From IMG/VR virus record IMGVR_UViG_3300020413_000061, positions 1 to 27,264 of that record: a stretch of DNA of 27,264 nucleotides; one strand, given 5' to 3'. The DNA is from a virus. Its lineage: Duplodnaviria > Caudoviricetes. The notes beneath the pieces are model-generated. The model searched no databases and was not told where the DNA came from. It saw only the letters and a program-made list of their open reading frames with translations. The translations under genes were made by a program, and so were the position numbers. Shown here in pieces: positions 213 through 24,286 of the stretch; the stretch's first letter is position 1, and every line of letters begins with the position of its first letter.

Positions 213-472
213 TACATTATACCCATTACCATTTCTAAAAATATTAAAGCTACAGCCCCCACTGTAGATAGAACTACCCAATAGATCTTATCTATCTTAC
301 CACCCAAAGCTTCTACATCCTGATGTACATGCGTAATTTTATCGTCCAGGTGTTTTAGGTGATTAGTTTTTATTAACTCTATTTCACGTTCAACGCCTTT
401 TACATGACCATACAAAGATATAATATGTTCTCTATCGTCTTCTGGGGTTATGCCTTTAACTGTATCGTTCAT
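212..472 (-). CDS. Small coiled-coil protein with C-terminal transmembrane helix (possible holin or lysis accessory)
   Basis: Heptad-like region followed by hydrophobic IYWVVLSTVGAVALIFL. Coupled by TAATG overlaps on both sides and directly precedes the endolysin. Confidence 0.65.
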   Translation of the reverse strand: MNDTVKGITPEDDREHIISLYGHVKGVEREIELIKTNHLKHLDDKITHVHQDVEALGGKIDKIYWVVLSTVGAVALIFLEMVMGIM

Positions 473-3400
473 TAACCTACTCCAAATATTGTGTCGTTTG
501 TACCAAAAACTTGTTGACCTTTCAACGCTGTTTGTTGACCAGTAGCCGGTGTAGTTGTAGGCAACGCAGCTGCAGACGTTGGTATATTGCTTAAACCCTG
601 TAAGGCTTGAGATTGTAGTATAGGAAGTTGAGAAATACTAGATGTTCTAAAAGGATTAGGTGTTTCAGGTAGTTTAGCTCCAAGAGGAATACCGTCATAT
701 AATCTAATTAATCTTTTAATTAAACTTCTAGCTCTCATGTATGGATTAGGATCTCCTATTGCCCTGGCGTTATCAGCAAAAGCTTTTTCTATGTTCTCTG
801 ATGGAACAAAAGGTTTAAACTCACCTCTTTTTATAGCATCTAACTGTGTCTTAGATACCCTGTCTGCAAACTCAGAGTCTAAATTGCTTATAGGTGTCCC
901 TAAAGTTCTAGCCGCATAGTAATCATTAAACATTTTTTCTTGTACTTTATATAACGCATCACTTGCTACTCTATATCTATCTACAATTTCTTCTGGAGAT
1001 ACAGGACCACCTCTTAACAACGGTGATGTAAATTCACGTCTAGCATTGTTAATACCTGTTCTAAAGTCTGCAATTTTAAATTTCATTGCTCTTACAGGAT
1101 CTATTTCAACGGCTCTAAAACCTAAGAAACCCTGTAACTCATTTCCTATTTCAAAATCTTGTCCGTATTTATCAAACTTTCCTTTTGTAATAACATCTAT
1201 AGGTTCAAAAGCACGGTCTAGTCTTTTAAATTGTTCTATAGATCCAGGCATTTGTGTTTTAATAACATGAGCTAGGGCTCTACTAAATTTTTCTCCTATA
1301 GGAGTTTGGTCTGTATATAGTCTATTACCTTCACGAGTACGACCACCTCTCATAACAATATCAGAAATACCTGTTGTCCAAATTGATTCACTAACAAACG
1401 GAGATAAAGCTTCCTTAGTACCTTCTATCATTGATTTTAATACTTCTTGACCCATGTCTCCTTCATTGGCTCCTCTCTGTATACCTGTATACAAAGCAGT
1501 AAGAGGTCTAATCATAGTGTCGTATGCATTAGCGTGAGAAAAATCTATATATTTTAATCCACCATCGTCATCTCTCATTGGAATTAAAGTAGAATTTTTT
1601 GACCAGTCAGGAACAAACCTTCTCATTGCTGCCATCTCATCTTCTGTTACATCGTGTAACGCTTTGAAAGCTTCTACAGTTCCATATGGTATAGCTAAAG
1701 TAGTTGTACCCATACCAAAAGCTCTTTTTAAACCTATAGCTCTAAGAGGATAAACAATACGACCGTCATCTAAAGTGTGTTTATAATTTATTTCTTTCAT
1801 CGCTCTAGAAATAATATTTCCCGAAGTTCTATATATTTCTGCAGGGAAAGATACAAAGTTACCAAGAGGCAATCTTCTTGTAGCTTTAATAAAATCGTTA
1901 ACCATATCGTAGTTAGGTATATTGTTTCTAATTATATCAGCAGCTTCTTCATCTAGTTCATCAGCTGTTCTTGTTATTTTATATTTCTCATACGCCTTGC
2001 CTAGTCTTTGTCTTTCTAGTGCAAACGAAGTTATCTTCCAAAAGTCATCTTCTGCTGTATAAAAATCTTCTGTAGTCTTTTTTAATTTTGATAAAGGTCT
2101 AAACATTTCTCGTAAAGCTTTTCTAGAATTTACAGACTCACCAAAGTTTGTATCTTTTAACAATCTTTGTAAGTCTCCTAGTCTTACGTTACTGTTAACA
2201 ACACCAAGTCTTAATAAATCCCTATACCTATCGTTAGCCATACGAGCCCCTGGAACCTGTAGTGCTTGAAATGCTTCTTTGAATGCAGCGGCACTATCAC
2301 CAACACTAACAGTTAAACCTGGTATCAAACCATTTGCTGAAGCAAAAGCACCTGCAGATATAAAGTTACGGGCATGTGTGACAGGACTTAAAACTGTTTT
2401 TGCAAGTTGTGAGGTTGCTTTTGGATACAATAAAAAACTTTCGTACAGTTGTGTAAGAGTTGATTTATCTCTAGCTACCATAGCTGATTCTTCAATTGCT
2501 TCTGCAACACCTTTCTCTGCATACTTACCATGTAAAGGGTTTGTACTTCCTGCTTCTATCGTCTTACTAGGGTCAATCTCAATCTGTTTAATATTTCTAC
2601 CAAAGTCAGACACAGCTTCCTTTTCTGTTTCTCTAAACAAACCTTTCATTGTAGCTGGCGTAAGACTGCCTGGATTGTCTTTTATAAAATCAGCTCTTTC
2701 TAAAGCTAGTTCTTTATCTTTAGTCAATAGTGTATTGTAAAACTGATTACGTCTTCCAACTAAAGACAATCTATTTGTTCCAGTAAGCATAGTTTGCATA
2801 GGGTCTTCAACTTTACCAAACAACTCTTCAATAATTTTTCTTTGATCACCTACAACATCTTCTAATGCTAACGTGCCTCTAGCTGATTCTATTTCACTAA
2901 GAGTAGTTCTGTTTACAAAGAAGTCAGGAACATCAAAATATATACCAGATGTTTTCTCTCTTGTTGTTGCTAAATCTCTAGGTGGTCTAGCTGTTTCCAA
3001 TAACCTATCAACAAAAACTTCTGCTTCTCCTCTTGTTATAGGCTTACCTGCATCCTCAGCAGAATCCATAAACATTTTAATTGTTTTTTCTACAGTTTCT
3101 TCCGTAGGCTTGTAATTAAACAAAGGTATAACGCTTTTGTTTTGGAACATCTCATAAGTTGAACCAAGATAACTTCTAAACTTTTCTCCAAATATAGGAG
3201 AGAAAGCACTTCTAACTTCATCGTCCATAGAATAACCAAGACGACTAAATATATGACCCCAACCTAAACGCATTTTTCCAAAAGAATCAAAAACACCTGC
3301 GATATCTTCTTCTTTGGCACCACGATCTCTCATGGTTTTTGTAACTTTAGATATTAAACCTTTGTCCATATCACCAAAAGTTACTTTACCTATAGAATCC

Positions 3401-5925
3401 ATAGACACGTCACCGGATAAAAGAGTGTCATTTAATTCTCTCATGAAACTTTGTCTTCCTTTGTTATCCATTTTTTTAAAAGGGTTTAAAACAAAAGGAA
3501 AGATAGCATCAATGTGCTTATCTAGTTTACGTGCTTGTTCACCGGCATAGTTAACATCCCCGGCCCGCGCTCCTATATTTCTTCGTTCGATATCAAAGTA
3601 TAGTTGAGACTTCTGTCCTCTAGGTCTAAAGGCTCCAAAGAACTTATCTAATTTATCGTTGTTTGCTGATAGATCGTTTCTTCTTTTTACCAATGATTTT
3701 ATAGCTGACCCTGCACCACCGACTAAACCAACCATTAATGATCCATCTAAACCAAACTTCATTCTATTTACAATTTCTTTAGATGCTTGGTTCTCATCGT
3801 TTGGATCGAGCTCCGTTGGTCCCATGCCTATCATATCTCCAAACGTACCAACACCTTCTGGATCACCTACAAAAATAGCATCACTTACTCCAGCACCGCC
3901 TGCAGCACCTAGCGTAGCTAGCAACCTACCTTTTGCATTTAGTGCTTCTTGAAACTTACCAGGTAGTTCAGGATCACTTAATTTAAAATAGTTACCATTT
4001 CTTTTATTTAATAAAGCACGTCTTGCTAATTTTTCTCCTGCTCTCCAACCATATGCACCAGGCACACCTAAATTTACAGCTATTCTAGAGAACGTTCCAA
4101 GCCAATGTTGTTCTGCTTTGTCGTCCCAATCATTTAAATTATCAAACCAGTCTTCTACTTTAGCTGCATTGTTTGTACCAACACCTAAATCCATAAGAGA
4201 CGCGCCAAGTGTAAAAGCACCTTTTGGTATATCTAATAAACCAGCACCTATACCTGCTAGTAAACTTTCCATGCCACCTATTTTATTTGTAGCATCTAAC
4301 ATACTAGCTGTGCCAGGAGCATCTCTAGGATCTCCAACAATACCACCTATTTTATAATTCTCTCTTGTACCACCAGCTGCATTGTCTTTCATAACTTCTA
4401 GTACAGAATCACCTAGGTCTAATCCTGTTGCATTCATCATGTTTTTAACTTGTGTATCAAAATCTGTTGTAGGGTTTTGTACTGGAGGTAAACTACCATC
4501 AGCTAGTTTAACTCGACCACCATCTTTTAAACCAAAACCTGGCCTAGTTATTCCAGGGGCATCATCTGATATCAAAGAGTCCATAAACCTGTTTGTAACT
4601 TTTTGTTTTATGTCCTGTCTAACAGCTTCCCAATTGTTAGTTGTATTATAAAGAAGCTCTGCTGGATCTAACTCACCTAATCTGTCTTGTTGAGCTTTAA
4701 AATAATAATTTCTTCCTGTCTTTGGACTATTAACAAACTTATTCATAGATTGTTCTATATAATCATCAAGTAAGTTAGGTGTTACCATGTCTGCTGTTAA
4801 AGGGGCATCTATATCTCTTTTTGCTTTGTACAAAATTTCACCATCAGGTCCAAATTTTCTCATGTTTCTTGATACATCTAATAAAACAGTGTCTTCTAAA
4901 GTAAAATCTTGAAGAAACTTGTCTCCAAATAAAGTTCCTCCTGGATCAAGACTCCCTTTAGGCTCACCTAAAAAATCAATTTTATTTTTGTTAACATCAA
5001 ATTTTTTAACAACAAGAACATCACCAAACTCAGAATAAATTTTATCTTGTAGTTTGTTTATTTCTTCCATTTCGTTCATTAAACGATTTTGGTCAACGGG
5101 GTCTGTTGTTTTTTTGTATTTTGCAAAAAGTTTTTCTAACAATATATTATTAGCGTCTCTTTGTTGTTCAACAGCATCATCTATTCTAGAAGCACCGCCT
5201 GTTAAAGCCTTATCTACATTTAGGTCTGCGTCTAAGTACGCAAGATCTTTTGCTCTGTATTTTGTTTTTAACCCCGCTGCATGGTGCAAATGTTTTGCTG
5301 TATCGCCTGACAACGCCGCAAGAATAGAAGTGCTACCTGCTGCTTTTTCTCTTAATGTTCTTTGTTGTTTTTTTGTACCAACAACTACATTGGCTGTTTG
5401 TGGATAACCATTGTAATGGTTTCTACCAAGCATGTTTAACATACCAGCAGACACATCTTTTCTAGCTTTTTGCATTTCATCTAAAGTTTTAAAACCAAAG
5501 TAAGGACTCATAAATAGATCATCCATGGCTTTTACTTTTTCTCTGTCAGGAAAATTTTGATAAGGAACGTTTTCTTGAAACTGTTTTACTAGTTTTTTAA
5601 AGTCATCTTCTATTTGAGCACTTTTAAAAACAACACGTGCTCCTTCCTCACCTCTATTAAAACTATAAGAAACAGGTTTGTTTGAAGAAAAAGGATTAGT
5701 CTTTCCATATTTTTTTAGTTTACTTTCTTTTATTTTTTCGCCTCTTTTTTTAAAGGCATCTTCTTTTGCTTTTGCAAATTTTGGTTCTATTTCAGTTTTA
5801 AATTTTTTTGCTTCTTCTAAAGTGTCAAAAACTTTATCAACATTTAAGGATGCTGACTCACGTTTATATCTAAATTTATCACCGCGGCTTTTAAATATAA
5901 ATCTAGCTATTTTAGTTGCTGGCAT
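472..5925 (-). CDS. Very large internal virion/ejection protein (1817 aa) with N-terminal AP2-like/HNH-like module
   Basis: Long ORF with GGAGG RBS. Last and largest gene of the post-nozzle cluster, the position T7 gp16 occupies. Helical, with Gly-rich hydrophobic segments. Function inferred from synteny. Confidence 0.7.
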   Translation of the reverse strand: MPATKIARFIFKSRGDKFRYKRESASLNVDKVFDTLEEAKKFKTEIEPKFAKAKEDAFKKRGEKIKESKLKKYGKTNPFSSNKPVSYSFNRGEEGARVVFKSAQIEDDFKKLVKQFQENVPYQNFPDREKVKAMDDLFMSPYFGFKTLDEMQKARKDVSAGMLNMLGRNHYNGYPQTANVVVGTKKQQRTLREKAAGSTSILAALSGDTAKHLHHAAGLKTKYRAKDLAYLDADLNVDKALTGGASRIDDAVEQQRDANNILLEKLFAKYKKTTDPVDQNRLMNEMEEINKLQDKIYSEFGDVLVVKKFDVNKNKIDFLGEPKGSLDPGGTLFGDKFLQDFTLEDTVLLDVSRNMRKFGPDGEILYKAKRDIDAPLTADMVTPNLLDDYIEQSMNKFVNSPKTGRNYYFKAQQDRLGELDPAELLYNTTNNWEAVRQDIKQKVTNRFMDSLISDDAPGITRPGFGLKDGGRVKLADGSLPPVQNPTTDFDTQVKNMMNATGLDLGDSVLEVMKDNAAGGTRENYKIGGIVGDPRDAPGTASMLDATNKIGGMESLLAGIGAGLLDIPKGAFTLGASLMDLGVGTNNAAKVEDWFDNLNDWDDKAEQHWLGTFSRIAVNLGVPGAYGWRAGEKLARRALLNKRNGNYFKLSDPELPGKFQEALNAKGRLLATLGAAGGAGVSDAIFVGDPEGVGTFGDMIGMGPTELDPNDENQASKEIVNRMKFGLDGSLMVGLVGGAGSAIKSLVKRRNDLSANNDKLDKFFGAFRPRGQKSQLYFDIERRNIGARAGDVNYAGEQARKLDKHIDAIFPFVLNPFKKMDNKGRQSFMRELNDTLLSGDVSMDSIGKVTFGDMDKGLISKVTKTMRDRGAKEEDIAGVFDSFGKMRLGWGHIFSRLGYSMDDEVRSAFSPIFGEKFRSYLGSTYEMFQNKSVIPLFNYKPTEETVEKTIKMFMDSAEDAGKPITRGEAEVFVDRLLETARPPRDLATTREKTSGIYFDVPDFFVNRTTLSEIESARGTLALEDVVGDQRKIIEELFGKVEDPMQTMLTGTNRLSLVGRRNQFYNTLLTKDKELALERADFIKDNPGSLTPATMKGLFRETEKEAVSDFGRNIKQIEIDPSKTIEAGSTNPLHGKYAEKGVAEAIEESAMVARDKSTLTQLYESFLLYPKATSQLAKTVLSPVTHARNFISAGAFASANGLIPGLTVSVGDSAAAFKEAFQALQVPGARMANDRYRDLLRLGVVNSNVRLGDLQRLLKDTNFGESVNSRKALREMFRPLSKLKKTTEDFYTAEDDFWKITSFALERQRLGKAYEKYKITRTADELDEEAADIIRNNIPNYDMVNDFIKATRRLPLGNFVSFPAEIYRTSGNIISRAMKEINYKHTLDDGRIVYPLRAIGLKRAFGMGTTTLAIPYGTVEAFKALHDVTEDEMAAMRRFVPDWSKNSTLIPMRDDDGGLKYIDFSHANAYDTMIRPLTALYTGIQRGANEGDMGQEVLKSMIEGTKEALSPFVSESIWTTGISDIVMRGGRTREGNRLYTDQTPIGEKFSRALAHVIKTQMPGSIEQFKRLDRAFEPIDVITKGKFDKYGQDFEIGNELQGFLGFRAVEIDPVRAMKFKIADFRTGINNARREFTSPLLRGGPVSPEEIVDRYRVASDALYKVQEKMFNDYYAARTLGTPISNLDSEFADRVSKTQLDAIKRGEFKPFVPSENIEKAFADNARAIGDPNPYMRARSLIKRLIRLYDGIPLGAKLPETPNPFRTSSISQLPILQSQALQGLSNIPTSAAALPTTTPATGQQTALKGQQVFGTNDTIFGVG

Positions 5926-5933
5926 ACTACCTC

Positions 5934-7124
5934 CTAACTAGAGGCCCATTCCTGTGCCTCTGCTAAGTCGTCAGTAAATTTCAAACCGCCTTCACTGTTA
6001 ACCGCACAGTAAAAACCTTGTCTACCAGAAGTTCCAGGATCAGGATTTAAGAATACAGAGTTTGTAGATGCTCGTGCTGTGTCTTCGTTAAACTCGCCTT
6101 TTCTATCTACAGGCAGTGTAGAAGTAATTCCTGCGTCAATTGCTTCTTGCATTTTTCTAATTTGACCAGGAGCTGTATAGTTACCAGCTGTTATGTTTTC
6201 TATATCTGCTGCTTGCATAAGTTGATCGTTACTAAACATTTCTGTCATAGCTTGTGTAGCAGCTGCTGTATTTATATCAGATGTTCTTTGTCTTCTTGTT
6301 GCCATTTCTGCTGATAAAGGAGCGTTGAATGCAGTTAATGCACCTCCAACGCCTTCTCCAGAACTTAATGCGCTACCACCAGCGACTAGTGCGTCACCAA
6401 TAGTTGTTAAATTATTGTTCTGTTCTCCTTCTCCTAACAGTTCTTTATATAAATTTAATTTTTCAAAATACTCTTCTCTAATTCTATCCTCTTGTGTCAT
6501 TTCTTCTACTTGATCCATAACGTCGCCTTGAGTTTCGTTGTCAGTTTCTTCTACAATATCAGAACCTGTTTTACCCATAGCGCTTCTAATTGCTCCAGCA
6601 GGAGTATATGAGAAGTCACCTTCTCCATAAGGTTTGCTAGCTTCGTATATATTTTTTGCTATGTTACCTGTTTGTAATAAAGGATTAATGGCTGTAGCTA
6701 GTTCTAATCCTTGTCTTCCCATTTGAAAAGCTGATCCCAATGGAGTGTCAGATGCACTTGGGTCTGGTGCGTCAAACATAGAAGATACAACACCAGCACC
6801 ACCTCCAACAGAACTTAAAGCTCTAAGGGCCATCATTTTTTTAGTAGGGTCTTTTATTTCTGATATAGTTTTCATAATATCATCACCACTACCACCGGCT
6901 AGTTTTCTCATATCCATAGCGTCTTCGTCTAAAACTTGTTTTGTTACTTTTGATCCTTTAGTTATATTCATAGGATTTATAAAATTCATAATACCTTCTA
7001 TAATTTTACCTCCTTTGGAATAACCTGCTCTGCCTCCAGATAGTCCAGACGTAATACCAACACCGTGTGATTTATCTACATCACCACCCATACTAAACAT
7101 TTTTCTTCTAAGAGTGTGTACCAA
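5934..7124 (-). CDS. Putative internal virion/ejection protein (396 aa), TTG start
   Basis: GGAGG-ATAAC-TTG start context. N-terminal LRRKMFSMGG. Gly/Ala-rich hydrophobic segments and an acidic helical part. Lies in the ejection cluster. Confidence 0.65.
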   Translation of the reverse strand: MVHTLRRKMFSMGGDVDKSHGVGITSGLSGGRAGYSKGGKIIEGIMNFINPMNITKGSKVTKQVLDEDAMDMRKLAGGSGDDIMKTISEIKDPTKKMMALRALSSVGGGAGVVSSMFDAPDPSASDTPLGSAFQMGRQGLELATAINPLLQTGNIAKNIYEASKPYGEGDFSYTPAGAIRSAMGKTGSDIVEETDNETQGDVMDQVEEMTQEDRIREEYFEKLNLYKELLGEGEQNNNLTTIGDALVAGGSALSSGEGVGGALTAFNAPLSAEMATRRQRTSDINTAAATQAMTEMFSNDQLMQAADIENITAGNYTAPGQIRKMQEAIDAGITSTLPVDRKGEFNEDTARASTNSVFLNPDPGTSGRQGFYCAVNSEGGLKFTDDLAEAQEWASS

Positions 7125-7125
7125 G

Positions 7126-8331
7126 TTATCCTCCTAATCCAAACATACCACCAAGGTTAGATAAGATACCTGCACCTTGCATAAAGTTACCAAAAGCACT
7201 TTCACCAGGACTTGCTTGAGGTCCTGCTGTTGTACCAATACTAGTTCCTGTTCCATAACCACCCATCAATCCTGAAATTTGTTGACCAACAAAACCAAGT
7301 TGTTCGTAAGGAGCGTACTGCTGTAGTTTATTAGTTTGTGCAAGAGCGTCTAATCCTGCTTGTGCATATTTCTGGTTTTGATCACCAAACGCTTGAAGCA
7401 CACCAAACTGTTGAGCACCTAACTGAGGCACTAATTGTGCCATTTGTGTTTGTGCTGCTAATGCTTGTGTAAATGGTGACGTCTGTGACTGTGCTAGTTG
7501 ACCTTGTGTTTGACCAACTTGTCCTAATGCTGAAATATCTTGACCAGCTAAACCTGCTGCACTTTCACCAAGAGCTGCTGTCTGTGAACTAATACCCATT
7601 CTGTTTGCAACGTCTTGTTGTCTAGCGCCTTGTGCTTGTTGGAATCCTTGGTTTAACATATTAGCTTGCAACATTGCTCTATCCATACCTCTACTAGAAC
7701 CAAGTTCTTGAGCCGCTGCTGCAGATCTACTACCTGTCATAGTTCCGCTCATAGCTTGTTGCATACCTAATTGTTGTTGTTGTCTTGATGTATCTAAATC
7801 AAAGTCAGCCATTGCAGCATCAATAACTTGTTGTTGATAAGGAGACATGTAAGAAGCAATTGAACCAGCCCCGGTTCCCGCTCCAGGACCCTGTAGTCCT
7901 CTTGCGCCTGCAAGGTCAGTAGCAGCTTGTTGCTGGAACGGGGTTGCAGCCCCCGAGATAGCTCTTCCTGCTGCTAATCCTTGCATTTGATTTGTTGCTC
8001 CTGCTGCATTTTGTAACGCAGCGGTTCCGGCACCTTGAATTTGATTTGCGGCTGTTGTAGCCTGATCTATAAATGGTTGAAAAGCCCCGATCCCCGATCC
8101 ACCGACCGCGCCTGATGCTGGGTCATATGTAAATCCTTGTTGACCAAGTGCTGTTTGCATTGCTTGTTGTTGCGCTTGGTTTTGCGCTGCAATAGCTGGA
8201 GCAAAAGCAGCTGTATTTATACTACCGCCTAATATACCAGCAAGCTTGGGACCAAAAGTACCTAGTAATGTTTCAACTGCCGGTGATGATAATTCTGTTT
8301 GTGTATGTCTAGTATCGTATTGTGACGCCAT
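7126..8331 (-). CDS. Putative DNA transfer/ejection protein, Gln/Ala/Gly-rich (401 aa)
   Basis: Q/A/G-rich helical composition, YMSPYQQQVID motif and a Gly-rich hydrophobic C-terminus, as typical of podovirus pilot/ejection proteins. TAATG coupling. Confidence 0.7.
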   Translation of the reverse strand: MASQYDTRHTQTELSSPAVETLLGTFGPKLAGILGGSINTAAFAPAIAAQNQAQQQAMQTALGQQGFTYDPASGAVGGSGIGAFQPFIDQATTAANQIQGAGTAALQNAAGATNQMQGLAAGRAISGAATPFQQQAATDLAGARGLQGPGAGTGAGSIASYMSPYQQQVIDAAMADFDLDTSRQQQQLGMQQAMSGTMTGSRSAAAAQELGSSRGMDRAMLQANMLNQGFQQAQGARQQDVANRMGISSQTAALGESAAGLAGQDISALGQVGQTQGQLAQSQTSPFTQALAAQTQMAQLVPQLGAQQFGVLQAFGDQNQKYAQAGLDALAQTNKLQQYAPYEQLGFVGQQISGLMGGYGTGTSIGTTAGPQASPGESAFGNFMQGAGILSNLGGMFGLGG

Positions 8332-9629
8332 TATACTTTTGCCTCCATATTATTCATTAGGTCATACATTCTTTGTGCGCCTACATTAACATCTCCACCA
8401 CCCATACCACGTACAGCATCAGCAGTCATTACAAATTCATTTTTAGAAAGCATCGCTGGCACATCGTCAGCCCTTTCTGGTCCACCCATAGGTATAAAAC
8501 CTCCTGAGTTTCTATAATCTAGTTCCATGCCGCCTGGTACACCAGGAGCTTGCATGATACCACCGCCAGCTCTAGGAGCTCTTGGGTTCATCATTTTTTG
8601 CATTTGAATATTGTACATTTGGTTTGCTATTGAATCTTCATTCATGCCTGGTGTTGTGGCTCCAAACAATGCTTCTTTTATTATCTCGGCCTGTTCTTCT
8701 AATTCTCTTTGACGTTTCTTACCTTCGCTTCTTTTCATAGGCATAACAGTTTCACCGTCTTTGTATCCTGTTCTGCCACCATCAGCAAAAGTGGTAAAGA
8801 TAGGATAGTTTGTTCCTGCAAATTGTCTTTTAGTAAATTGCATTGGGTTTACAGTCTCGTTATAGTTTCCGCCATACATAGCTCCATAAGGACCATAGAT
8901 TGTATTTATTTCATCTTGTGTATATCCAGCGTTTTGACCATATAGATTCATTAGATCATAATTTTTTTGAGCTAACGCATCTTGACTAAGTGCTCCATCT
9001 GTTCCTGCTCCACCAGCTGCTCTTTGTTGTTCAAAATCATCCATAGCATTCATTCCAGCCATGATACCCATAGGTGCTGATAGTTTCATCGCTTGACTAA
9101 ATCTTCCTTTATTTAAAAGTTGTGGTGCAATGTCTTCACTAAAGTCAATTGGGTTGTACATTGATCTACCTGTACTTGTAATAGCATCAGAGAAACGTTG
9201 TCCTATACCCGCGATCCCCGGTTCGTATTTAAAACCTTCAGCAAAAGTTTTAAAAGCATCTGGGTTATCGGCTGCGAATTGCATTGCATTACCGGCTGTT
9301 CCTCCTGCTCCTGGTAAAAGATTAGGGTTAGCAGCATTCGCTACAGAGTCACTCATAAACGCTTTTTCAGCAGCTGTACCTTTACCTGCTTGAGCTCCCT
9401 TTGCCATACCTGTCATAGCAGCTTGTAATGCTAATTTTTTATAATTTAATTTTCCGTAGTTTTTTGCATCGGCTAATGCTTGTGCTGGTAAAGTTGCTAA
9501 CATTCCAACAGGTCCCAAGAAAGGAGCAGCCATAGCTATATAAGGCATGACTTTCGCTAATTCTTTTGGCATGATCTTGTCAGCCACTTTATTCATGACC
9601 TTATCGACTTTTTTCTTGACCGATCCCAT
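8331..9629 (-). CDS. Putative ejection protein (432 aa) with basic amphipathic N-terminus and tape-measure-like C-terminal domain
   Basis: Lys-rich N-terminal helix followed by a hydrophobic stretch. C-terminal ADDVPAMLSKNEFVMTADAV resembles the SDxIPAxLSxGEFV motif of phage tape measure C-termini. Confidence 0.7.
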   Translation of the reverse strand: MGSVKKKVDKVMNKVADKIMPKELAKVMPYIAMAAPFLGPVGMLATLPAQALADAKNYGKLNYKKLALQAAMTGMAKGAQAGKGTAAEKAFMSDSVANAANPNLLPGAGGTAGNAMQFAADNPDAFKTFAEGFKYEPGIAGIGQRFSDAITSTGRSMYNPIDFSEDIAPQLLNKGRFSQAMKLSAPMGIMAGMNAMDDFEQQRAAGGAGTDGALSQDALAQKNYDLMNLYGQNAGYTQDEINTIYGPYGAMYGGNYNETVNPMQFTKRQFAGTNYPIFTTFADGGRTGYKDGETVMPMKRSEGKKRQRELEEQAEIIKEALFGATTPGMNEDSIANQMYNIQMQKMMNPRAPRAGGGIMQAPGVPGGMELDYRNSGGFIPMGGPERADDVPAMLSKNEFVMTADAVRGMGGGDVNVGAQRMYDLMNNMEAKV

Positions 9630-10045
9630 TACAGCATATGCTCCTTAGTTGTTATAGACATACGACTTCTTATCAAACCATTTGGTGCAAGCCTCAACCA
9701 TTGTACAGGTTTCCCCGGTCCCAATAAGTGTGTGAAAAAAGTTTTATAAAAAATCATAGCGTCGTTATGTTTTCTTTTAAAGATTGTATCAATGACCCAA
9801 GTTCTATCTCCACTATTCCAATCCTCAAAATTTAGCTCCCTAGTTTCTAAATATTTTGTTTCAGCTTCTTTACTTAAAAAAGCCCAGTTTCGAAACCCAT
9901 AAAGCCCATTATCGTCTGCGTGTACTTTATATTGTCCCAAAGTTAGTGATGGATAAATGTGATAGAAAATTTCTTTTAGACTGTTTTCAAACCATAAAGG
10001 GTAATGAAACTTATATAATTCAAGGGTGTCTAAAAGCTCATCCAT
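9629..10045 (-). CDS. HlyC/RtxC-family toxin-activating acyltransferase homologue
   Basis: IYPSLTLGQY...GFRNWAFLSKEAETKYL...EDWNSGDRTWVID...WLRLAP matches the HlyC pattern as I recall it (VLPAIQANQY...AYCSWANLSLENEIKYL...EDWTSGDRKWFID...AIRVDP). Confidence 0.88.
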   Translation of the reverse strand: MDELLDTLELYKFHYPLWFENSLKEIFYHIYPSLTLGQYKVHADDNGLYGFRNWAFLSKEAETKYLETRELNFEDWNSGDRTWVIDTIFKRKHNDAMIFYKTFFTHLLGPGKPVQWLRLAPNGLIRSRMSITTKEHML

Positions 10046-10071: not shown

Positions 10072-10314
10072 TTATTCGCCTGATCCAGCGCCCATTGGCA
10101 ACTGAACTACTTTAACCTGTATATCTTTAGCCTTGTGTACTGCCCAAGGCTGACCGCAGTTGCTACAAACACCTGTGGCTTGTTCATCAGAATCTACCTC
10201 ATTATCGCAATTTTTACAATATATTCTCTCATAAACTTCAGGCTGTACAACTGGAACCTCTACCCCTTCTACCCATGTTGTGCCAATCACCTTAGAATCT
10301 TGAACTTTTTTCAT
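10072..10314 (-). CDS. Small zinc-ribbon protein (80 aa)
   Basis: CKNC...CSNC pair. TAATG overlap with the upstream gene. Confidence 0.7.
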   Translation of the reverse strand: MKKVQDSKVIGTTWVEGVEVPVVQPEVYERIYCKNCDNEVDSDEQATGVCSNCGQPWAVHKAKDIQVKVVQLPMGAGSGE

Positions 10315-10670
10315 TAAGTTATCTGCAATATTGATAAAACTACGTGTAAGGCATTGCCTGAAGATGCTTGTACTTTTAATTGATCTCCATCTTCTAAAAC
10401 TAAAGGTTGGGTAATTAACTCTGTGGTTGTGTTCGCAGCTATAGACTTTGCCTCAAATAATTTAATGGTTGCTGGTCCTAAGCTTTTATCTAATATTGAT
10501 ATTGTAATTGTTACAGCACCACCAGAATCATTACAAACTAAAATATTTTTTATAAGAGAGGTTACAGGGTCTTGAGCAGGTTGAGTAATCTGTGCCGTAG
10601 GCACAGTGTAAATTGTCTGTTCATTTGTATTCGTTAAATCTAAACTTTTATTTATATATTGGTCAGCCAT
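10314..10670 (-). CDS. Small beta-rich virion-associated protein (118 aa; start revised to ATG 10670)
   Basis: ATG 10670 overlaps the stop of the 55-aa upstream ORF (TAATG). The TIYTVP...ILVCN...LVLEDGDQLKV pattern is typical of small phage tail-associated proteins. Confidence 0.75.
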   Translation of the reverse strand: MADQYINKSLDLTNTNEQTIYTVPTAQITQPAQDPVTSLIKNILVCNDSGGAVTITISILDKSLGPATIKLFEAKSIAANTTTELITQPLVLEDGDQLKVQASSGNALHVVLSILQIT

Positions 10671-10837
10671 TATAATCCAAACCATGTTCTTGCTAAAACT
10701 GAATCTTTTAAATCTGTTTGATAACTAAAATTTAATTGATTAATCACAGCTTCTAGTTCTCTAATTAAAAGGTCTTGTTGTTCTCTTGTAAACTCATCTT
10801 TAGGTAAAGGAAACCTAGTTACTTTTATTCTTGCCAT
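10670..10837 (-). CDS. Hypothetical 55-aa protein
   Basis: Not in ORF track: MARIKVTRFPLPKDEFTREQQDLLIRELEAVINQLNFSYQTDLKDSVLARTWFGL. Fills the gap exactly, with TAATG overlaps at both ends. Confidence 0.8.
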   Translation of the reverse strand: MARIKVTRFPLPKDEFTREQQDLLIRELEAVINQLNFSYQTDLKDSVLARTWFGL

Positions 10838-12660
10838 TATCTTGCTCCATCCGGAGTTATATCATATCTAAAAGTACCAAAACGCCAGTTAGAATCTGTA
10901 GCACTACTACTTAATACAATATTAGATTGTCTCCCACGACCTCTAACAGAAAAATGTTTAGTGGTAGGAGTTATGTTAGAATTAAAATTACGTGGTGTAG
11001 TCGATGTAGGGTAGTTTAAAAAATTTAAACCTACATTAACAGTGCCAGCTAAATTTTTAAAATCAGGTATAACTCTACTAATGTGATAAACTTGATCTCC
11101 ATCTTCAATATCAATATCACCAGAAGTTAAAGAACACGTCATAGCCCCGCCATCATCATTTAATCCGTCTTCGTGTCTGTAAATTTGTGATGACCCAGCT
11201 GTCACACCTCTTATTGTTTCATTTGTAGGTAAATCGTTTGGATAATACCTAGAAGCAAACGGGTTAGAATAAACACCTCTATCAGACCATGCAGTTCTTG
11301 CAAAACCTGTGTTAGTATACCAAACATCTTCTAAGTAATTATAAGTTACACTTCTATTAATAGCACTAGAACCTTTTGAAGGATAAAACCAAGTTACTTC
11401 GTTAAAGTCTACGTTAATACCTGCGTATACTTGAACTTGTGCTGTCGTATCAAGATCATCAAAAACATAACTTTGAACAGTACAATCTAATTTTTTAACA
11501 GAACCATCAAAAATGTAAAAAGCTGTTTGTGACATCCAATAACTTACACCGTTAACTTCTGCCCAACAAAAAGGAGAGATAGCCCCACAACTTGATCCAA
11601 CTTGTTGTAAACTAAAAACAGCATCCCCACCAATAAGTGTAAGAATGTTTAAAGAAGAATCTGTCCATACTAAAACACTACCACGAGATCTAGTAGCAGC
11701 CATTATTTTAGAACCTTCTTGAACCTGATCAGAACCTGATGCGTTTTCTCTTAAACTAGTAAATGTCCAAGATGTGTAGTCTCGTTGTGCTGACCAACGA
11801 ATCAACATGTTGTTCTGTGTTCCTGGGGTTCCTATTGTTTCTTCTGTTCCTAAACATAAAACAAACTGACCATTTGTAACTAATAAAAACCTACTCGTAC
11901 TTGGAGCTTGTGTTATTACTTGTGCTGGAGTTGCAACACCACCTGATAAATCCCATCTGTATAAAGCGCCGTTGTTCCTTATTGCAAATAAATCTTCTCC
12001 TAAAATATCAAAAGACCAAGACGTAGCTTCTACAAAAATAGCAGAAGAAGTTCTAGGCGTGTTCCACGATCCGGCGTTCCATGTAGCAGTACCCCAACCA
12101 AAACCAAAACTACTAGTAGCTGATCCTACGTTTATTTGATACTTAGCTGTTACTGTACCTCCACCTGTACCTGCACTTACGTTTCCTGTATGTGTAATAG
12201 TGTAAGAGTTAGCATCTACAATACTTGTAATTTCATACTCTGCGTTAAAGTCAGCTCCGTTTAAAGTAGAAGCTCCACTGTAGGTTACAAAACTTCCTTC
12301 TGTTGCTCCGTGGTTTGTATGCGCTACTGTTATCGTAGCTGTACCGTTTGCAGTAAAAGGACCAGATAAAGTTGCGCTTAATCTTTCAGGTGTAATATTA
12401 CTTACAACACCTTCTGAATACACATACAGTTTTCTATCTGTACCAATTGCCATGAATCTAACACCGGCCGTTGAGTACCAAGTTTTTTGTGCACGAACCA
12501 CACCACATATTTTAGGAGCAACTAGTTTAGTCCACCCTCCAATTTTTTCAGGTAGTTTTGCTCTAAACCTAACATTGACACAATCTATCCATCTACCTTC
12601 TGCTCCGTAGTTTGTAGTTTCTTTATCAATACCTGGTGCTATATTAACTTTACTCAGCAT
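10837..12660 (-). CDS. Tail nozzle/hub protein (P22 gp10 / T7 gp12-like) with inserted FCCH-like beta domain
   Basis: 607 aa, Trp-rich beta-propeller-like repeats (IRWS, VSYWMS, EVTWFYP). HTNHGATEGSFVTYSG insert. Position before the ejection genes. Confidence 0.75.
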   Translation of the reverse strand: MLSKVNIAPGIDKETTNYGAEGRWIDCVNVRFRAKLPEKIGGWTKLVAPKICGVVRAQKTWYSTAGVRFMAIGTDRKLYVYSEGVVSNITPERLSATLSGPFTANGTATITVAHTNHGATEGSFVTYSGASTLNGADFNAEYEITSIVDANSYTITHTGNVSAGTGGGTVTAKYQINVGSATSSFGFGWGTATWNAGSWNTPRTSSAIFVEATSWSFDILGEDLFAIRNNGALYRWDLSGGVATPAQVITQAPSTSRFLLVTNGQFVLCLGTEETIGTPGTQNNMLIRWSAQRDYTSWTFTSLRENASGSDQVQEGSKIMAATRSRGSVLVWTDSSLNILTLIGGDAVFSLQQVGSSCGAISPFCWAEVNGVSYWMSQTAFYIFDGSVKKLDCTVQSYVFDDLDTTAQVQVYAGINVDFNEVTWFYPSKGSSAINRSVTYNYLEDVWYTNTGFARTAWSDRGVYSNPFASRYYPNDLPTNETIRGVTAGSSQIYRHEDGLNDDGGAMTCSLTSGDIDIEDGDQVYHISRVIPDFKNLAGTVNVGLNFLNYPTSTTPRNFNSNITPTTKHFSVRGRGRQSNIVLSSSATDSNWRFGTFRYDITPDGAR

Positions 12661-12791: not shown

Positions 12792-14519
12792 TTATCCTCC
12801 GTCTGTACCTAAATTCTTTGTACCATAATAATGAGATAATTTCATGTTTTGTTTATTAATTTTAACAAAGGCGTTATCTTCTAAATTCGATGTTCCTGTA
12901 CTATATGAAGCAGTAGCCGTTTCATTTGAACCGCCTAAAGCAGAATCCCAACCAGGTGTAATATTACTAACACTAAAAACCCCTGAAGCATTACTTGTTG
13001 CTTTGTAGGTGCCTCCTATAGAAGCTCTAGATCTAAACCTCATGGTCCCTGTACTTGGATAATTATTATATATATAAGGAAAGACTGGATTGGATGCATA
13101 TAAAGATCCTGTGCCACTTCCTGCACTGCCTCCTGGTGGGCTTTGAGAACTAAAACCAGGATTTCCAGCAGTATTAATTAGATTAGAATAAGTTGACGTA
13201 ACTGTAGATCTATTCGCACTAGCAGGCATGTAAACTGTAAAACTATAATCACTAGTAGCTGATCCGGAAGTAAGGTCTCTTGCAAACCTAATACTTGGTC
13301 TTGTATTTTGTCCAAATCTTTGAGTTGACGCTGTACCTCCCCAGTTAGTCTGGAGAGTAAATTGATTATTACTACCCGAGTCAAAATAATTTGTATAAAA
13401 AGTTTGGTATCTAGCTCCACCATTTGCTTGATAAAAAGGAGTAAAAAAATACCAATCAGAAGAGTTATTAGTCACTGTACAACTTACAGTAGATCCACTA
13501 CCTCCCCAACTAACACTAAAAGTACCAGTAGAAGGGATACCGTTATAGACATTAGCTATTGTTCCGCTATTACCGCTACGTAAATACTGGCCAACTCCAG
13601 ACGCAGTATTAGGTATATTACCTCCACTAGTAGGACCACCGTTTATGTATCCATTACCTGAACCTGTGTATGGATACACTCTAAAATAACCTGCTGAACC
13701 AGTAGTATTCCAACCTCCGCCTAATTGACCTACAGGGCCACTCCAATTTATTGCGTAAAAATAACCAACATATACACTAGGTGCCATTCCTCCTGCGGTT
13801 ACACTAGGGTAAGCAGAAACAGTCATTTGACTTGTTATGCTTTGTCCCGGAGGAATCATACCAGGTACACGTTGTGGACTTACACTTGTTGTAAATAAAG
13901 ATCCACCTGATACTTTACCTGATTCAGAACCACCTGAATAACTAGAATTTAAAGTAACATCACAATAAGGTCTGTTCATTGTAACTAATCTATTAGTATC
14001 AGGAAAAGAACTTATTACAGGAGTATAATTAGTTCCACTCACTGTTTGTTGTGTATTGGTATTTAGATAAACTATGTTTGTACCTATGCTTTCACTTGTG
14101 CCTCCAGCTGCAGTGGATAAATCACATACAACATGAGTATAGCCACCTCCATGGTAAGAGCTGCTAGCATCGTAAACAGCTCCATTATTAGAAACCCCTG
14201 AAGCTAAATTACTTCCTGATGTATTGTCTGTAGTAGACACATAAAAAGGAACGTTAACAGTTGATTGCAATAAAAATCTTATTCTTAATTTCCCTGGAAA
14301 AGAAAAATAAGTATATGGAAAAAAACCTCCACTAACTCCTTGAATTGTAAAATGTTGGCCTGTCCAAGCTACATAAATAATGTCTTCTTGTATACCACCA
14401 AAATTATCTGGATATCTTGCTATGTAGTCGCCAAGTTTAATATTAGACTGACCCCCGCTAGAATTAAACTCATTCATAAGATTAGAAAAAGTTATTGCGC
14501 CGGATGCTGTAACTGTCAT
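12792..14519 (-). CDS. Putative tail fibre tip adhesin/receptor-binding protein (575 aa)
   Basis: S/G/T/N/Y-rich beta composition. N-terminal ASGAITFSNLxxEF...IKLGDY motif. ATGA overlap with the upstream S74-type fibre. Confidence 0.65.
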   Translation of the reverse strand: MTVTASGAITFSNLMNEFNSSGGQSNIKLGDYIARYPDNFGGIQEDIIYVAWTGQHFTIQGVSGGFFPYTYFSFPGKLRIRFLLQSTVNVPFYVSTTDNTSGSNLASGVSNNGAVYDASSSYHGGGYTHVVCDLSTAAGGTSESIGTNIVYLNTNTQQTVSGTNYTPVISSFPDTNRLVTMNRPYCDVTLNSSYSGGSESGKVSGGSLFTTSVSPQRVPGMIPPGQSITSQMTVSAYPSVTAGGMAPSVYVGYFYAINWSGPVGQLGGGWNTTGSAGYFRVYPYTGSGNGYINGGPTSGGNIPNTASGVGQYLRSGNSGTIANVYNGIPSTGTFSVSWGGSGSTVSCTVTNNSSDWYFFTPFYQANGGARYQTFYTNYFDSGSNNQFTLQTNWGGTASTQRFGQNTRPSIRFARDLTSGSATSDYSFTVYMPASANRSTVTSTYSNLINTAGNPGFSSQSPPGGSAGSGTGSLYASNPVFPYIYNNYPSTGTMRFRSRASIGGTYKATSNASGVFSVSNITPGWDSALGGSNETATASYSTGTSNLEDNAFVKINKQNMKLSHYYGTKNLGTDGG

Positions 14520-15316
14520 TTTTTTACCTTGGCGGACAACTCATTAATTGCTTGCACGAGCAGTCCAATTAATTTTTCATACTTTACACCAAGAGTACCA
14601 TCTTCTCTTTTAGCTACAACTTCTGGCAAAACTTTTTCTACGTCTTGTGCTACAATTCCTACATCATGCTTTCTAACAAAATACCCATCTTCACCACCAC
14701 GATTTTTTATGTGGTCGTCTTTCCAATCAAATTTAACACCACGGATAGCGTTAACTTTATCTAATGCATTTTCTATTGTTGTTATGTTTTCTTTTAATCT
14801 TTCATCAGAAGAATAATAAGCTGTAATTTCATTTATTGCTCGTATCTCGCCGGTAGTTGAACCAACACTAGTTGTACCTACAGATAAACCTCCATCTACT
14901 CGACAACCCCCTGCTTCTGTCATAAGACGACCAACATTATTGTGATACAATTGAACACTACCATCTGGAACTGCATAAATCATAGTTTCTGATGCATCAT
15001 TGTTTGTAACATAAAAACCATTTAAAACTGTAATTACACCATTCGTGCCATTTGAATATAATTTCATGTCTGTTCCAGCGCCCATTTGTATTCTAGCTGG
15101 AGCTGGGCCAGTACTATCAGGGAACACAACACTACCTGTCATTGTACCACCTGCTGTTTGTAATCTGCCTGTAATTTGTGTTTGTGCGTTAGAAGATAAA
15201 CTGTTTATAAATTGATACTCTGTATTATCAACAGATCCATCTGCAATATTGGTAGCACCAATACCTGATAAATTTGCTCCACTAAATGCATATTTTTTTG
15301 ATTCGTATGTTGCCAT
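14516..15316 (-). CDS. Tail fibre protein with C-terminal Peptidase_S74 intramolecular chaperone
   Basis: SSDERLKENI...ALDKVNAIRGVKFDW...VGIVAQDVEKVLPEVV...VKYEKLIGLLVQAINEL. Confidence 0.9.
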   Translation of the reverse strand: MATYESKKYAFSGANLSGIGATNIADGSVDNTEYQFINSLSSNAQTQITGRLQTAGGTMTGSVVFPDSTGPAPARIQMGAGTDMKLYSNGTNGVITVLNGFYVTNNDASETMIYAVPDGSVQLYHNNVGRLMTEAGGCRVDGGLSVGTTSVGSTTGEIRAINEITAYYSSDERLKENITTIENALDKVNAIRGVKFDWKDDHIKNRGGEDGYFVRKHDVGIVAQDVEKVLPEVVAKREDGTLGVKYEKLIGLLVQAINELSAKVKK

Positions 15317-23374: not shown

Positions 23375-24286
23375 TTAAGCAGAACCGTCAGAACCGTAGA
23401 TACCTCTCCAGTCAGACCAACCGAAGCTGTATCTTTCCCTAGCTTTGTATCTCATATTACCAGTCTCGAAGTCACCTTCCATAGCCGTTTTAATCGGCGC
23501 ACGGACCATGTGCTTCAATCCGTTAGGCACATCAGTTTTCAAGAAGAATGCGTCATCGTCAGTTAGGAAGTTATTTACTACATAACCTTGAGGAACCATT
23601 CCCATTGATTTTAGTGCGTTAACGTCGTTATCAGCTGTGCCGACACGATTAGCAGACTTCATAAGTCTTTCCGCAGTGAACTGGTTAGCTGAAGGTATGA
23701 TCATTTTGACCGCCTTCGCAGCAATTTTAAGACCTCTCTCGTCCTTGAAATTAGCAATGTCAATCATTGCTTGTTCAAGAGAAGTTTCAGACAAGTCAGC
23801 TAATGTGACAGGTCTGTTGCTGATGTTACCAGCGATAGTTGGGTGAGCGTTTCCAATTAGGGACTCACCGTCACCGCCGTTGTAACCAGAAGCTTTAAAT
23901 GCATTGTTTAATACATTCGCAGCTTTAGTCTGCTTCGTTTGAGCCATAGAACGTGCTAGTGCTTTTGTGTAACGAGTAGAAATCTTGTCATACAAGTTAT
24001 CTTCCACCGCCTCTTCCGTTAAGCTAAATGCTAACGCAATAGTCTCGTGTTGATATCTTGCAGTGAAAGTTTCCTGCGCGTTATCGTAAGCAACAGCAGC
24101 GCCTTCTGACTTAACGCCTGCTTTGTCGAAACCAGATAACATTACTTCTTCTTCAAAAGCTCTGTCACTGTTTTCAGTGTCGAAAATTTCAGCATGCTGA
24201 TTTTCGTAGTTTTTGTACTCAAGTCCAAATAATGCATTCAGACCTGGCTCTAGCTCTTTAGCTAGTTGTTGTCTTGATATAGCCAT
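23375..24286 (-). CDS. Major capsid protein (HK97 fold)
   Basis: MAISRQQLAKELEPGLNALFGLEY...KARERYSFGWSDWRGIYGS, a capsid type I recognise from aquatic phages. GGAGG RBS, biased codon use and a downstream terminator. Confidence 0.92.
   Translation of the reverse strand: MAISRQQLAKELEPGLNALFGLEYKNYENQHAEIFDTENSDRAFEEEVMLSGFDKAGVKSEGAAVAYDNAQETFTARYQHETIALAFSLTEEAVEDNLYDKISTRYTKALARSMAQTKQTKAANVLNNAFKASGYNGGDGESLIGNAHPTIAGNISNRPVTLADLSETSLEQAMIDIANFKDERGLKIAAKAVKMIIPSANQFTAERLMKSANRVGTADNDVNALKSMGMVPQGYVVNNFLTDDDAFFLKTDVPNGLKHMVRAPIKTAMEGDFETGNMRYKARERYSFGWSDWRGIYGSDGSA

What the first reader, a model, noticed from the sequence alone, without database searches (positions are those of the whole stretch)
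9629..10045. Phage-encoded RTX-toxin-type acyltransferase (HlyC/TAAT family) coupled to the ejection proteins: candidate virion-protein fatty-acylation system
Seen: the 138-aa ORF follows the HlyC pattern along almost its whole length, and its stop overlaps the start of the first ejection gene (TAATG). The window contains no RTX toxin (no GGxGxD nonapeptide array) and no type I secretion genes. Known: TAATs transfer acyl chains from acyl-ACP to lysines of pore-forming RTX toxins, which the toxins need for membrane activity, and they have a GNAT-related fold. T7 gp13 and P22 gp14 sit at the equivalent genomic position and are predicted to be GNAT-like. Inference: the phage uses a toxin-activating enzyme to lipidate proteins that form the DNA-delivery channel in the host envelope.
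Basis: partly seen in the sequence, partly recalled or inferred. Interest (0 to 1): 0.92.

Follow-up and report, generated by a model that had tools for sequence, protein, structure and literature searches.

The report
Phage lipid-capping enzyme for entry proteins
A marine phage carries a protein with the fold of bacterial toxin-activating enzymes directly in front of a likely DNA-entry protein; in related phages that entry protein nearly always begins with a bare glycine when this gene is present and with greasy amino acids or a leader when it is absent, so the protein likely attaches a fatty acid to the entry protein's tip, which my searches did not find shown for any phage.

Summary
Real gene (9629-10045, minus strand) in an HTVC023P-type pelagiphage fragment. 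It passes Pfam HlyC (52 bits, cut-off 25) and its model matches ApxC best (Z 14.1). It is not a canonical TAAT: the catalytic His column holds Tyr/Trp/Phe in 47 of 47 viral representatives, while the Asp column stays acidic in 45 of 47. The label is already in GenBank for six pelagiphages.

New here: the gene overlaps the start of unrelated virion proteins (podovirus ejection cluster, siphovirus-like J tip). With the gene, partners begin Met-Gly-small residue (101 of 105; 37 of 38). Without it, none do (0 of 124; 0 of 37); they carry Phe/Trp/Leu/Ile or a leader there instead. Each family gives 9 independent tree pairs, none opposite.

Best reading (0.55, inferred): fatty acylation of the partner's N-terminal glycine, a myristoylation-like membrane cap that sister phages replace with aromatic residues. 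Against: His lost, gene absent from four complete relatives, cassette hitchhiking not excluded, no biochemistry. The scan noted similar GNAT/ACP ideas on other DNA, but none for this family.

The parts
9629..10045 (-). 138-aa HlyC/TAAT-fold protein of a virus clade; Trp18 in the catalytic-His column, His29, Asp86 and Arg118 conserved
   Evidence: Pfam PF02794 52.4 bits; model pLDDT 93.6; Foldseek 4whn E 5e-9 to 1e-8, TM 0.72-0.74; VIA Z 14.1, rmsd 2.9, 131 aligned; dN/dS 0.08-0.21 against 9 relatives
9627..9646 (-). Translational coupling: AAGGAG inside the last codons of the enzyme gene (9641-9646) and TAATG stop/start overlap (9627-9631)
   Evidence: sequence; overlap of -1 in 150 of 281 related loci, -4 to -22 in 126 more
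9480..9629 (-). Predicted acceptor segment of the partner: Met-Gly-Ser start, Lys-rich amphipathic stretch (residues 2-19), weakly hydrophobic stretch (27-49)
   Evidence: hydrophobic moment 0.55, hydropathy peak 1.55; start class co-varies with the gene
8331..9629 (-). 432-aa coupled partner, likely first ejection-cluster protein and inferred substrate
   Evidence: next gene in all 40 of 42 close syntenic loci that extend past the stop; C-terminal motif hits tape-measure PHROGs weakly, E 2e-4; Atlas gives only unnamed clusters
7126..8331 (-). 401-aa Gln/Ala/Gly-rich protein, likely DNA ejection protein
   Evidence: own sequence has no hit; 4 of 8 homologues hit phrog_4287 'DNA ejection protein', best E 5e-8; HTVC023P gp81 E 2e-10, linked to this protein at E 1e-5
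5934..7124 (-). About 396-aa protein of the same cluster (start uncertain)
   Evidence: ORF and conserved order; no family hit
472..5925 (-). 1817-aa large virion protein, likely last ejection protein
   Evidence: phrog_22602 virion structural protein, E 2e-21; gene at this position labelled 'DNA transfer protein' in DSL-LC04
10072..10685 (-). Two small conserved upstream genes (80 aa with two CxxC pairs; 123 aa)
   Evidence: conserved order; weak zinc-ribbon hits below cut-off
10837..12660 (-). 607-aa virion structural protein, likely tail nozzle; used as tree marker
   Evidence: phrog_3287 E 3e-79; homologue labelled 'stabilization protein' in DSL-LC04
23375..24286 (-). Major capsid protein placing the record among HTVC023P-type phages
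   Evidence: 72% identical to HTVC023P capsid

Best explanation
The gene encodes a TAAT-fold protein whose stop overlaps the start of the next virion gene, and it likely works as an N-acyltransferase that would move a fatty acyl chain, probably from host acyl-ACP, onto the free N-terminal glycine of that partner, giving a likely membrane-inserting helix a lipid cap. Shown: fold, coupling, purifying selection, altered active-site columns, and co-variation of the partner's start with the gene. Inferred: Met removal exposes Gly2 (general knowledge of methionine aminopeptidase); the kept Asp serves as base and the lost His matters less for an alpha-amine than for a lysine; the donor is host acyl-ACP; the capped helix enters the host outer membrane at DNA ejection. 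Sister phages without the gene reach a similar end with encoded Phe/Trp/Leu/Ile before the same helix.
For: Fold. Kept residues: acidic residue in the Asp column in 45 of 47 and Arg118 in 47 of 47 viral representatives; dN/dS 0.08-0.21. His-less TAATs keep residual activity (PMC8510554, passages). Partners start Met-Gly in 143 of 151 distinct N-termini, against 26 of 625 other ORFs in the same loci and 5 of 56 genes downstream of bacterial homologues. Podovirus orthologues: Met-Gly-small in 101 of 105 with the gene, 0 of 124 without; 9 independent pairs, mean 8.4 same way, 0 opposite, p about 0.008. J-like tip proteins, sampled by an internal motif with the class fixed beforehand: 37 of 38 versus 0 of 37; 9 pairs, 8.5 same way, 0 opposite, p about 0.004. 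Residue 3 in gene-less J proteins that start Met-Gly: Phe 20, Leu 4, Trp 3, Ile 1 of 28. Two apparent exceptions proved to hide a TTG-start copy of the gene (E 2e-36). Leader-type gene-less orthologues carry [YF][FG][LI] right before the same Gly-Ser/Lys helix in 41 of 55 (shuffled 2.3%). HTVC103P holds the gene in the early region, and its non-adjacent partner orthologue still starts Met-Gly-Ser; HTVC104P has the gene and the same start. 22 of 151 partners have no Lys in the first 25 residues. No phage ACP in 0 of 5 gene-bearing contigs.
Against: The catalytic His column holds no His in any of 47 viral representatives and the Ser column is Phe/Tyr in 45; in CdiC the His mutant behaves like a null in competition (PMC8510554). 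The Asp column is Asn in 2 of 47, and other residues occur in library hits. The gene is dispensable: absent from 4 of 4 complete HTVC023P-type genomes and from HTVC202P. Met-Gly alone is not specific: 54 of 55 and 13 of 65 gene-less podovirus partners in two samples were scored, 53 and 13 of them starting Met-Gly. 13 of 151 partners break the rule: 5 Met-Gly-Phe, 8 not Met-Gly. The partner's start overlaps the gene, so both can travel as one cassette and inflate the co-variation. One subclade sits beside the portal before hydrophilic, non-amphipathic N-termini, some starting Met-Ala. No acylation, donor or virion location was measured.
Confidence: 0.55

Rival explanations
1. Canonical-type lysine fatty acylation: the enzyme acylates a Lys in the N-terminal amphipathic helix, and the Met-Gly-small start is only a recognition or spacing element.
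For: All characterised TAATs act on Lys, and CdiC shows a non-RTX substrate (PMC8510554; PMC8339906). Most partners are Lys-rich near the start: Lys at position 6 in 69, 14 in 64 and 10 in 60 of 151.
Against: No Lys position is shared by even half of the partners; 22 of 151 lack Lys in the first 25 residues, whereas Gly2 is in 143 of 151. Gene-less orthologues keep their lysines and change the residues next to Gly2 instead.
Confidence: 0.15
2. Non-catalytic assembly chaperone: a dead TAAT fold binds the partner's N-terminal helix and shields or delivers it during virion assembly, as the non-virion morphogenesis role of T7 gp13 might suggest.
For: His and Ser columns are replaced by aromatics in nearly all viral copies. 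T7 IVP-A is needed for morphogenesis, is not kept in the virion, and a non-acetyltransferase family takes its slot in phiRIO-1 (PMC4819975, passages). A binder would also co-vary with the partner's start.
Against: The Asp and Arg118 columns are kept across very divergent viral copies. Gene-less phages have the more hydrophobic starts, the opposite of what loss of a shielding chaperone predicts.
Confidence: 0.15
3. Short-chain N-terminal acylation (acetyl or similar) that blocks or stabilises the partner's N-terminus, interchangeable with a GNAT acetyltransferase.
For: A PF00583 GNAT fills the same slot in DSL-LC06, whose J protein starts Met-Ser. After ApxC the closest folds are GNAT-like proteins, including N-terminal acetyltransferases.
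Against: TAATs lack the CoA-binding elements and use acyl-ACP (PMC8339906). An acetyl group would hardly be replaced by Phe/Trp/Leu residues.
Confidence: 0.1
4. No functional link to the neighbour: the enzyme acts on a host or other phage target, and the partner's first codons merely travel with the gene as one cassette.
For: Overlapping start; early-region position in HTVC103P; hydrophilic partners in the portal-adjacent subclade.
Against: The start class holds across at least seven overlap offsets, unrelated partner families and enzymes only about 30-40% identical. No gene-less locus of 161 has the gene-type start after correction. HTVC103P/104P partners keep it without adjacency.
Confidence: 0.05

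Closest known systems
Toxin-activating acyltransferases (TAAT; HlyC, CyaC, ApxC; Pfam PF02794; PDB 4WHN)
   Same: Profile above cut-off, same fold (Z 14.1, 131 residues), catalytic Asp column kept, gene directly before its likely substrate.
   Different: Catalytic His and Ser columns are aromatic; no RTX toxin; viral copies form one side of a branch against 32 bacterial homologues; likely acceptor is an N-terminal Gly of a virion protein, not an internal Lys.
CdiC of class IV contact-dependent inhibition (PMC8510554, abstract and passages)
   Same: TAAT co-opted to lipidate a non-RTX protein that meets the outer membrane of a target bacterium.
   Different: CdiC keeps the His/Asp dyad and acylates an internal Lys; it is bacterial.
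IVP-A slot: T7 gp13, P22 gp14 homologues (PMC4819975, passages)
   Same: Small acyltransferase-fold gene between the tail nozzle and the first ejection gene; different families alternate in the slot.
   Different: IVP-A matches acetyltransferases, not TAATs, and no substrate is given in the passages read. The gene here is optional and also serves J-like tail tips.
GenBank 'toxin-activating lysine-acyltransferase' of pelagiphages HTVC111P, 026P, 112P, 103P, 104P, 115P (bioRxiv 10.1101/2019.12.14.876532)
   Same: Homologues at 24-34% identity, same virus clade.
   Different: In the paper's main text the term occurs once, in a figure legend, with no function, active-site or partner analysis.
N-terminal glycine acylation: AatD/CexE (PMC7943197, abstract only) and eukaryotic N-myristoylation of virus entry proteins (recalled)
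   Same: Acyl cap on an N-terminal Gly that targets a protein to membranes.
   Different: Different enzymes (AatD; NMT, recalled as a GNAT-related fold). Neither is phage-encoded.

Membership tests
TAAT / HlyC (PF02794) | Profile match above the curated cut-off | tested here: met
   52.4 bits against 25
TAAT / HlyC (PF02794) | ApxC fold | tested here: met
   Foldseek E 5e-9; VIA Z 14.1, rmsd 2.9, 131 aligned, next hit Z 10.2
TAAT / HlyC (PF02794) | Catalytic His (HlyC H23, ApxC H24) | tested here: not met
   Trp18, invariant in 37 close homologues. Column: Tyr 38, Trp 7, Phe 2 of 47 viral; His in 19 of 32 bacterial. Mapped by sequence alignment, not by residue-level superposition.
TAAT / HlyC (PF02794) | Active-site Ser three residues before the His (HlyC S20) | tested here: not met
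   Tyr15; Phe 36, Tyr 9 of 47 viral; Ser in 21 of 32 bacterial
TAAT / HlyC (PF02794) | Catalytic Asp | tested here: met
   Asp86 aligns with the Asp of the ApxC WFID motif; Asp 41, Glu 4, Asn 2 of 47 viral
TAAT / HlyC (PF02794) | Cognate RTX protoxin and type I secretion genes | tested here: not met
   No RTX repeats in the window or in 5 gene-bearing relatives; the window's own genome is incomplete
TAAT / HlyC (PF02794) | Acyl-ACP-dependent acylation of lysine | not testable with these tools
   Needs biochemistry
IVP-A (T7 gp13 / P22 gp14) slot proteins | Position between nozzle gene and first ejection gene | tested here: met
   Directly before the partner, downstream of the nozzle-like gene, in 105 loci; nozzle and ejection labels are inferred
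IVP-A (T7 gp13 / P22 gp14) slot proteins | Sequence match to the T7 gp13 / P22 gp14 or GNAT Pfam families | tested here: not met
   HlyC is the only Pfam hit at E 0.01; GNAT-like folds follow only as weaker structural matches
IVP-A (T7 gp13 / P22 gp14) slot proteins | Non-virion protein required for morphogenesis | not testable with these tools
   Needs virion proteomics and genetics; absent altogether from 4 complete relatives
N-terminal glycine acyltransferase (works-like claim) | Substrates share Gly2 and a constrained next residue | tested here: met
   138 of 151 distinct partners; co-variation in two families
N-terminal glycine acyltransferase (works-like claim) | Acyl chain on the alpha-amine | not testable with these tools
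   Needs mass spectrometry

The most novel reading that the evidence does not exclude
Abundant aquatic phages carry their own myristoylation-like system: a rewired toxin-activator fold that fatty-acylates the N-terminal glycine of the proteins that breach the host membrane, in both short-tailed ejection clusters and long-tail tips. Enzyme and acceptor tag move between unrelated virion genes as a unit, and phages that lack the enzyme spell the cap in aromatic amino acids. This would be a lipid-modified tailed-phage virion protein and a model for what the T7 gp13 slot does.
Probability: 0.5. Interest if true: 0.9.

Novelty: new variant of a known kind. Interest (0 to 1): 0.78.

Why it matters
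How ejection and tail-tip proteins enter the host membrane, and what the acyltransferase-fold gene in front of them (T7 gp13 slot) does, are open questions. This family names a residue (Gly2), a likely donor, and a natural cultured pair (HTVC111P with the gene, HTVC202P without; tip proteins 78% identical over the region tested), so one mass-spectrometry run can decide it. If true, it extends protein fatty acylation to tailed-phage virions, shows a TAAT fold working without its catalytic His on a new acceptor, and corrects a 'toxin-activating' label that is misleading on these phages.

Tried and rejected
1. RTX toxin activation: no toxin repeats in the window or five relatives.
2. Met-Gly alone as proof: rejected, because gene-less orthologues often start Met-Gly too; only the following residue class discriminates.
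3. GNAT and TAAT swapping in this podovirus slot: not seen in 73 gene-less loci (upstream genes were compared only with the window's proteins, HTVC023P gp80 and my HlyC profile). PF00583 finds nothing in 5 genomes. HTVC023P gp80 looks GNAT-like by eye but has no significant Pfam hit and only weak unnamed PHROG hits and no profile match to this family, so it stays untested. The swap is seen only in the tail-tip operon.
4. The first podovirus tree mislabelled loci whose gene lay more than 2.6 kb from the marker; checked and redone. The all-rows tree did not finish.
5. Phage-encoded ACP: none in 5 contigs.
6. NCBIfam: no hit. Atlas for the partner's N-terminus: unnamed clusters only.
7. Complex prediction of enzyme with partner peptide was not available, so binding is untested.
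8. The ApxC structure paper was not held and a search for its residue roles found nothing relevant; the ACP-binding role of the Arg column and the N35/D93/R121 numbering are recalled.
9. RNA-library contigs from three studies cover parts of the ORF and one bridges the junction; contigs do not show transcription, so this is not used as support.
10. Close cellular homologues: none in the genome collection scan (low-identity partial matches only).

Full report
Observation. The ORF is on the minus strand, 9629-10045, 138 aa. Its stop overlaps the start of a 432-aa gene as TAATG, with AAGGAG 11 nt upstream. Pfam HlyC scores 52.4 bits (cut-off 25) over residues 22-98; ApxC matches at E 1.2e-7. A model from 37 homologues (pLDDT 93.6) matches 4WHN first by Foldseek (E 5e-9) and by VIA (Z 14.1, rmsd 2.9, 131 residues; next Z 10.2, GNAT-like). 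dN/dS against nine relatives is 0.08-0.21. The window is a 44% complete virus record with a capsid 72% identical to pelagiphage HTVC023P; a SAR11 host is inferred. No RTX repeats occur here or in 0 of 5 gene-bearing relatives, with controls ringing.

Active site. Asp86 aligns with the Asp of ApxC's WFID motif and His29 with an Asn. Trp18 falls in the column that holds His in 58 of 130 library representatives and 19 of 32 bacterial homologues. Among 47 viral representatives (70% identity cut) that column is Tyr 38, Trp 7, Phe 2; the Ser column is Phe 36, Tyr 9; the Asp column is Asp 41, Glu 4, Asn 2; Arg118 is in all 47. The 47 viral and 32 bacterial rows fall on two sides of one branch (SH-aLRT 99, with a long-branch warning). 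TAAT catalysis rests on a His/Asp dyad; His mutants keep residual activity, though the CdiC His mutant acts like a null in competition (PMC8510554, passages). So this fails the membership test for a canonical TAAT but may still be an enzyme.

Neighbourhoods. Four viral scans plus GenBank loci gave 289 loci with the gene, 281 with a readable next gene, 151 distinct by the first 12 residues (some contigs were fetched twice, and scans keep the best 80 hits). The next gene overlaps the stop in 276 of 281. Partners fall into unrelated groups: the 432-aa family in HTVC023P-type podoviruses; J-like tail-tip proteins after a gpL-like gene in HTVC111P-type phages (PF13550, phrog_31); the HTVC115P type; and proteins beside the portal. 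In HTVC103P the gene lies in the early region before a non-Gly gene. Residue 2 is Gly in 143 of 151, against 26 of 625 other ORFs in the loci and 5 of 56 genes after bacterial homologues (17 of 73 had no scorable gene). 138 of 151 are Met-Gly plus Ser/Gly/Lys/Ala/Arg/Cys; 5 are Met-Gly-Phe and 8 do not start Met-Gly. The ejection label is inferred: homologues of the next gene hit 'DNA ejection protein' in 4 of 8 tested and in HTVC023P gp81, but the window's own copy and the 432-aa protein do not.

Controls without the gene. Four complete HTVC023P-type genomes and 20 fragments lack PF02794, with three positive records ringing. A sample taken by a C-terminal motif of the partner (120 loci fetched of about 2600, 76 scorable) has the gene in 3; all 3 start Met-Gly-Lys/Ser and none of the 73 others does. 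Those 73 start with Met-Gly plus Phe/Leu/Ile, with Met-Pro or Met-Phe, or with a leader; 41 of 55 leaders carry [YF][FG][LI] directly before the same Gly-Ser/Lys helix (shuffled 2.3%, one short ORF dropped). Pooling 229 loci that hold the nozzle-like marker: 101 of 105 with the gene are Met-Gly-small, 0 of 124 without. On a tree of 105 rows (left out: 55 loci recruited partly by an N-terminal pattern, one short ORF, short markers and near-duplicates) gene presence changes 12 times; 9 independent pairs go the same way 8.4 times on average and never the opposite way, p about 0.008. The residue class was chosen after seeing these data.

Out-of-sample test. J-like proteins were sampled by an internal motif (120 loci of about 1200, 76 scorable). 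Raw: 35 of 36 with the gene and 3 of 39 without were Met-Gly-small. I inspected those three and three other odd loci only: two hid a TTG-start copy of the gene (E 2e-36), and one had its coupled start five codons on, reading Met-Gly-Phe-Phe. Corrected: 37 of 38 versus 0 of 37; residue 3 in the 28 gene-less Met-Gly starts is Phe 20, Leu 4, Trp 3, Ile 1. On 64 rows, 9 independent pairs, 8.5 same way, 0 opposite, p about 0.004. Cultured HTVC202P lacks the gene and its J starts Met-Gly-Ile; HTVC111P has it and starts Met-Gly-Gly. DSL-LC06 has a GNAT in the slot and a Met-Ser start; one locus has a GNAT-like gene by eye and a Met-Cys start; three Roseobacter phages have a DUF6950 or similar gene there. 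HTVC103P and 104P partner orthologues start Met-Gly-Ser with no adjacent copy but a copy elsewhere in the genome.

Mechanism. Shown: fold, coupling, selection, changed active site, co-variation. Inferred: Met is removed; the enzyme puts an acyl chain on the Gly2 alpha-amine; the chain comes from host acyl-ACP (no phage ACP in 0 of 5 contigs; TAATs use acyl-ACP, PMC8339906 passages); the capped amphipathic helix (moment 0.55) enters the outer membrane at infection. Gly is preferred over Lys because no Lys position reaches half of the partners and 22 of 151 have none in the first 25 residues. A lipid is preferred over acetyl because gene-less phages put bulky hydrophobic residues at that spot. 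Caveats: the partner's start overlaps the gene, so cassette transfer can inflate the pair counts, although the rule holds across many overlap offsets and divergent enzymes; the portal-adjacent partners are hydrophilic and some start Met-Ala; nothing biochemical is shown.

Known and new. Six pelagiphage records already carry the HlyC label; the describing preprint names it once, in a figure legend (10.1101/2019.12.14.876532, passages; supplements closed). The acetyltransferase-like IVP-A slot and its alternating occupants are described in PMC4819975 (passages). CdiC is a TAAT on a non-RTX substrate; AatD acylates an N-terminal Gly (PMC7943197, abstract). Searches for phage HlyC function or lipidated phage virion proteins (listings only, plus passages of PMC3765740, PMC8953716 and PMC11288001, which gave nothing relevant) found no such report; the library lacks most subscription papers. 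The scan holds related notes on GNAT or ACP genes before Met-Gly or Met-Cys ejection proteins in other genomes (unchecked); none on this family. My Met-Gly idea was noted before that look-up.

Verdict. A real, virus-clade TAAT-fold gene with a rewired active site and strong comparative evidence that it acts on the first residues of virion entry proteins. New variant of a known kind; interest 0.78; best mechanism 0.55.

Noticed in passing
window 472-9629 (minus strand): The 432-, 396- and 1817-aa proteins carry repeated short motifs of the form R-x-x-[YF]-x-x-G-G or A/K-x-G-G; similar motifs end the portal-adjacent partners and resemble the leader junction of gene-less orthologues. Possibly protease sites.
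   Followed up: partly
L102, L110, L119, L132, L149-L155, L261; HTVC023P gp77-78 (L056), HTVC027P gp80-81 (L053): A pair of glycosyltransferase-like genes (about 310 and 250-300 aa) often sits in the same slot before the partner, with or without the HlyC-like gene, so the slot may collect virion-modifying enzymes.
   Followed up: partly
L056:28727-29185: HTVC023P gp80 (152 aa) lies between the partner orthologue and the ejection-like gp81 and looks GNAT-like by eye; no significant family hit.
   Followed up: partly
L047-L052, L619-L635: A subclade about 50% identical to the window's protein has moved next to the portal gene, before hydrophilic low-complexity proteins that mostly start Met-Gly.
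   Followed up: partly
window 10072-10314: The 80-aa upstream protein has two CxxC pairs in this clade; the 81-83-aa protein at the same place in the psg01-like, gene-less clade lacks them.
   Followed up: no
window 20707-21717: A head-module protein (phrog_28581) is fused to a C-terminal domain like 5'-3' deoxyribonucleotidase (phrog_2643, E 7e-10); a relative (L630) has a much shorter gene there.
   Followed up: no
window 26397-26837, 14516-15316, 18091-19542, 3-281: GroES co-chaperonin, two fibre proteins with Peptidase_S74 domains, and a Peptidase M15 endolysin fragment: ordinary for this phage group.
   Followed up: no
P0126, P0197, P0244, P0170: Longer library proteins (315-633 aa), three with two to four matching stretches, suggest tandem or fused HlyC-like domains.
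   Followed up: no
L510, L493 (DSL-LC06), L494-L496: The gpL-J slot also holds a GNAT (J starting Met-Ser or Met-Cys) or a DUF6950 gene, so at least three families alternate there.
   Followed up: partly
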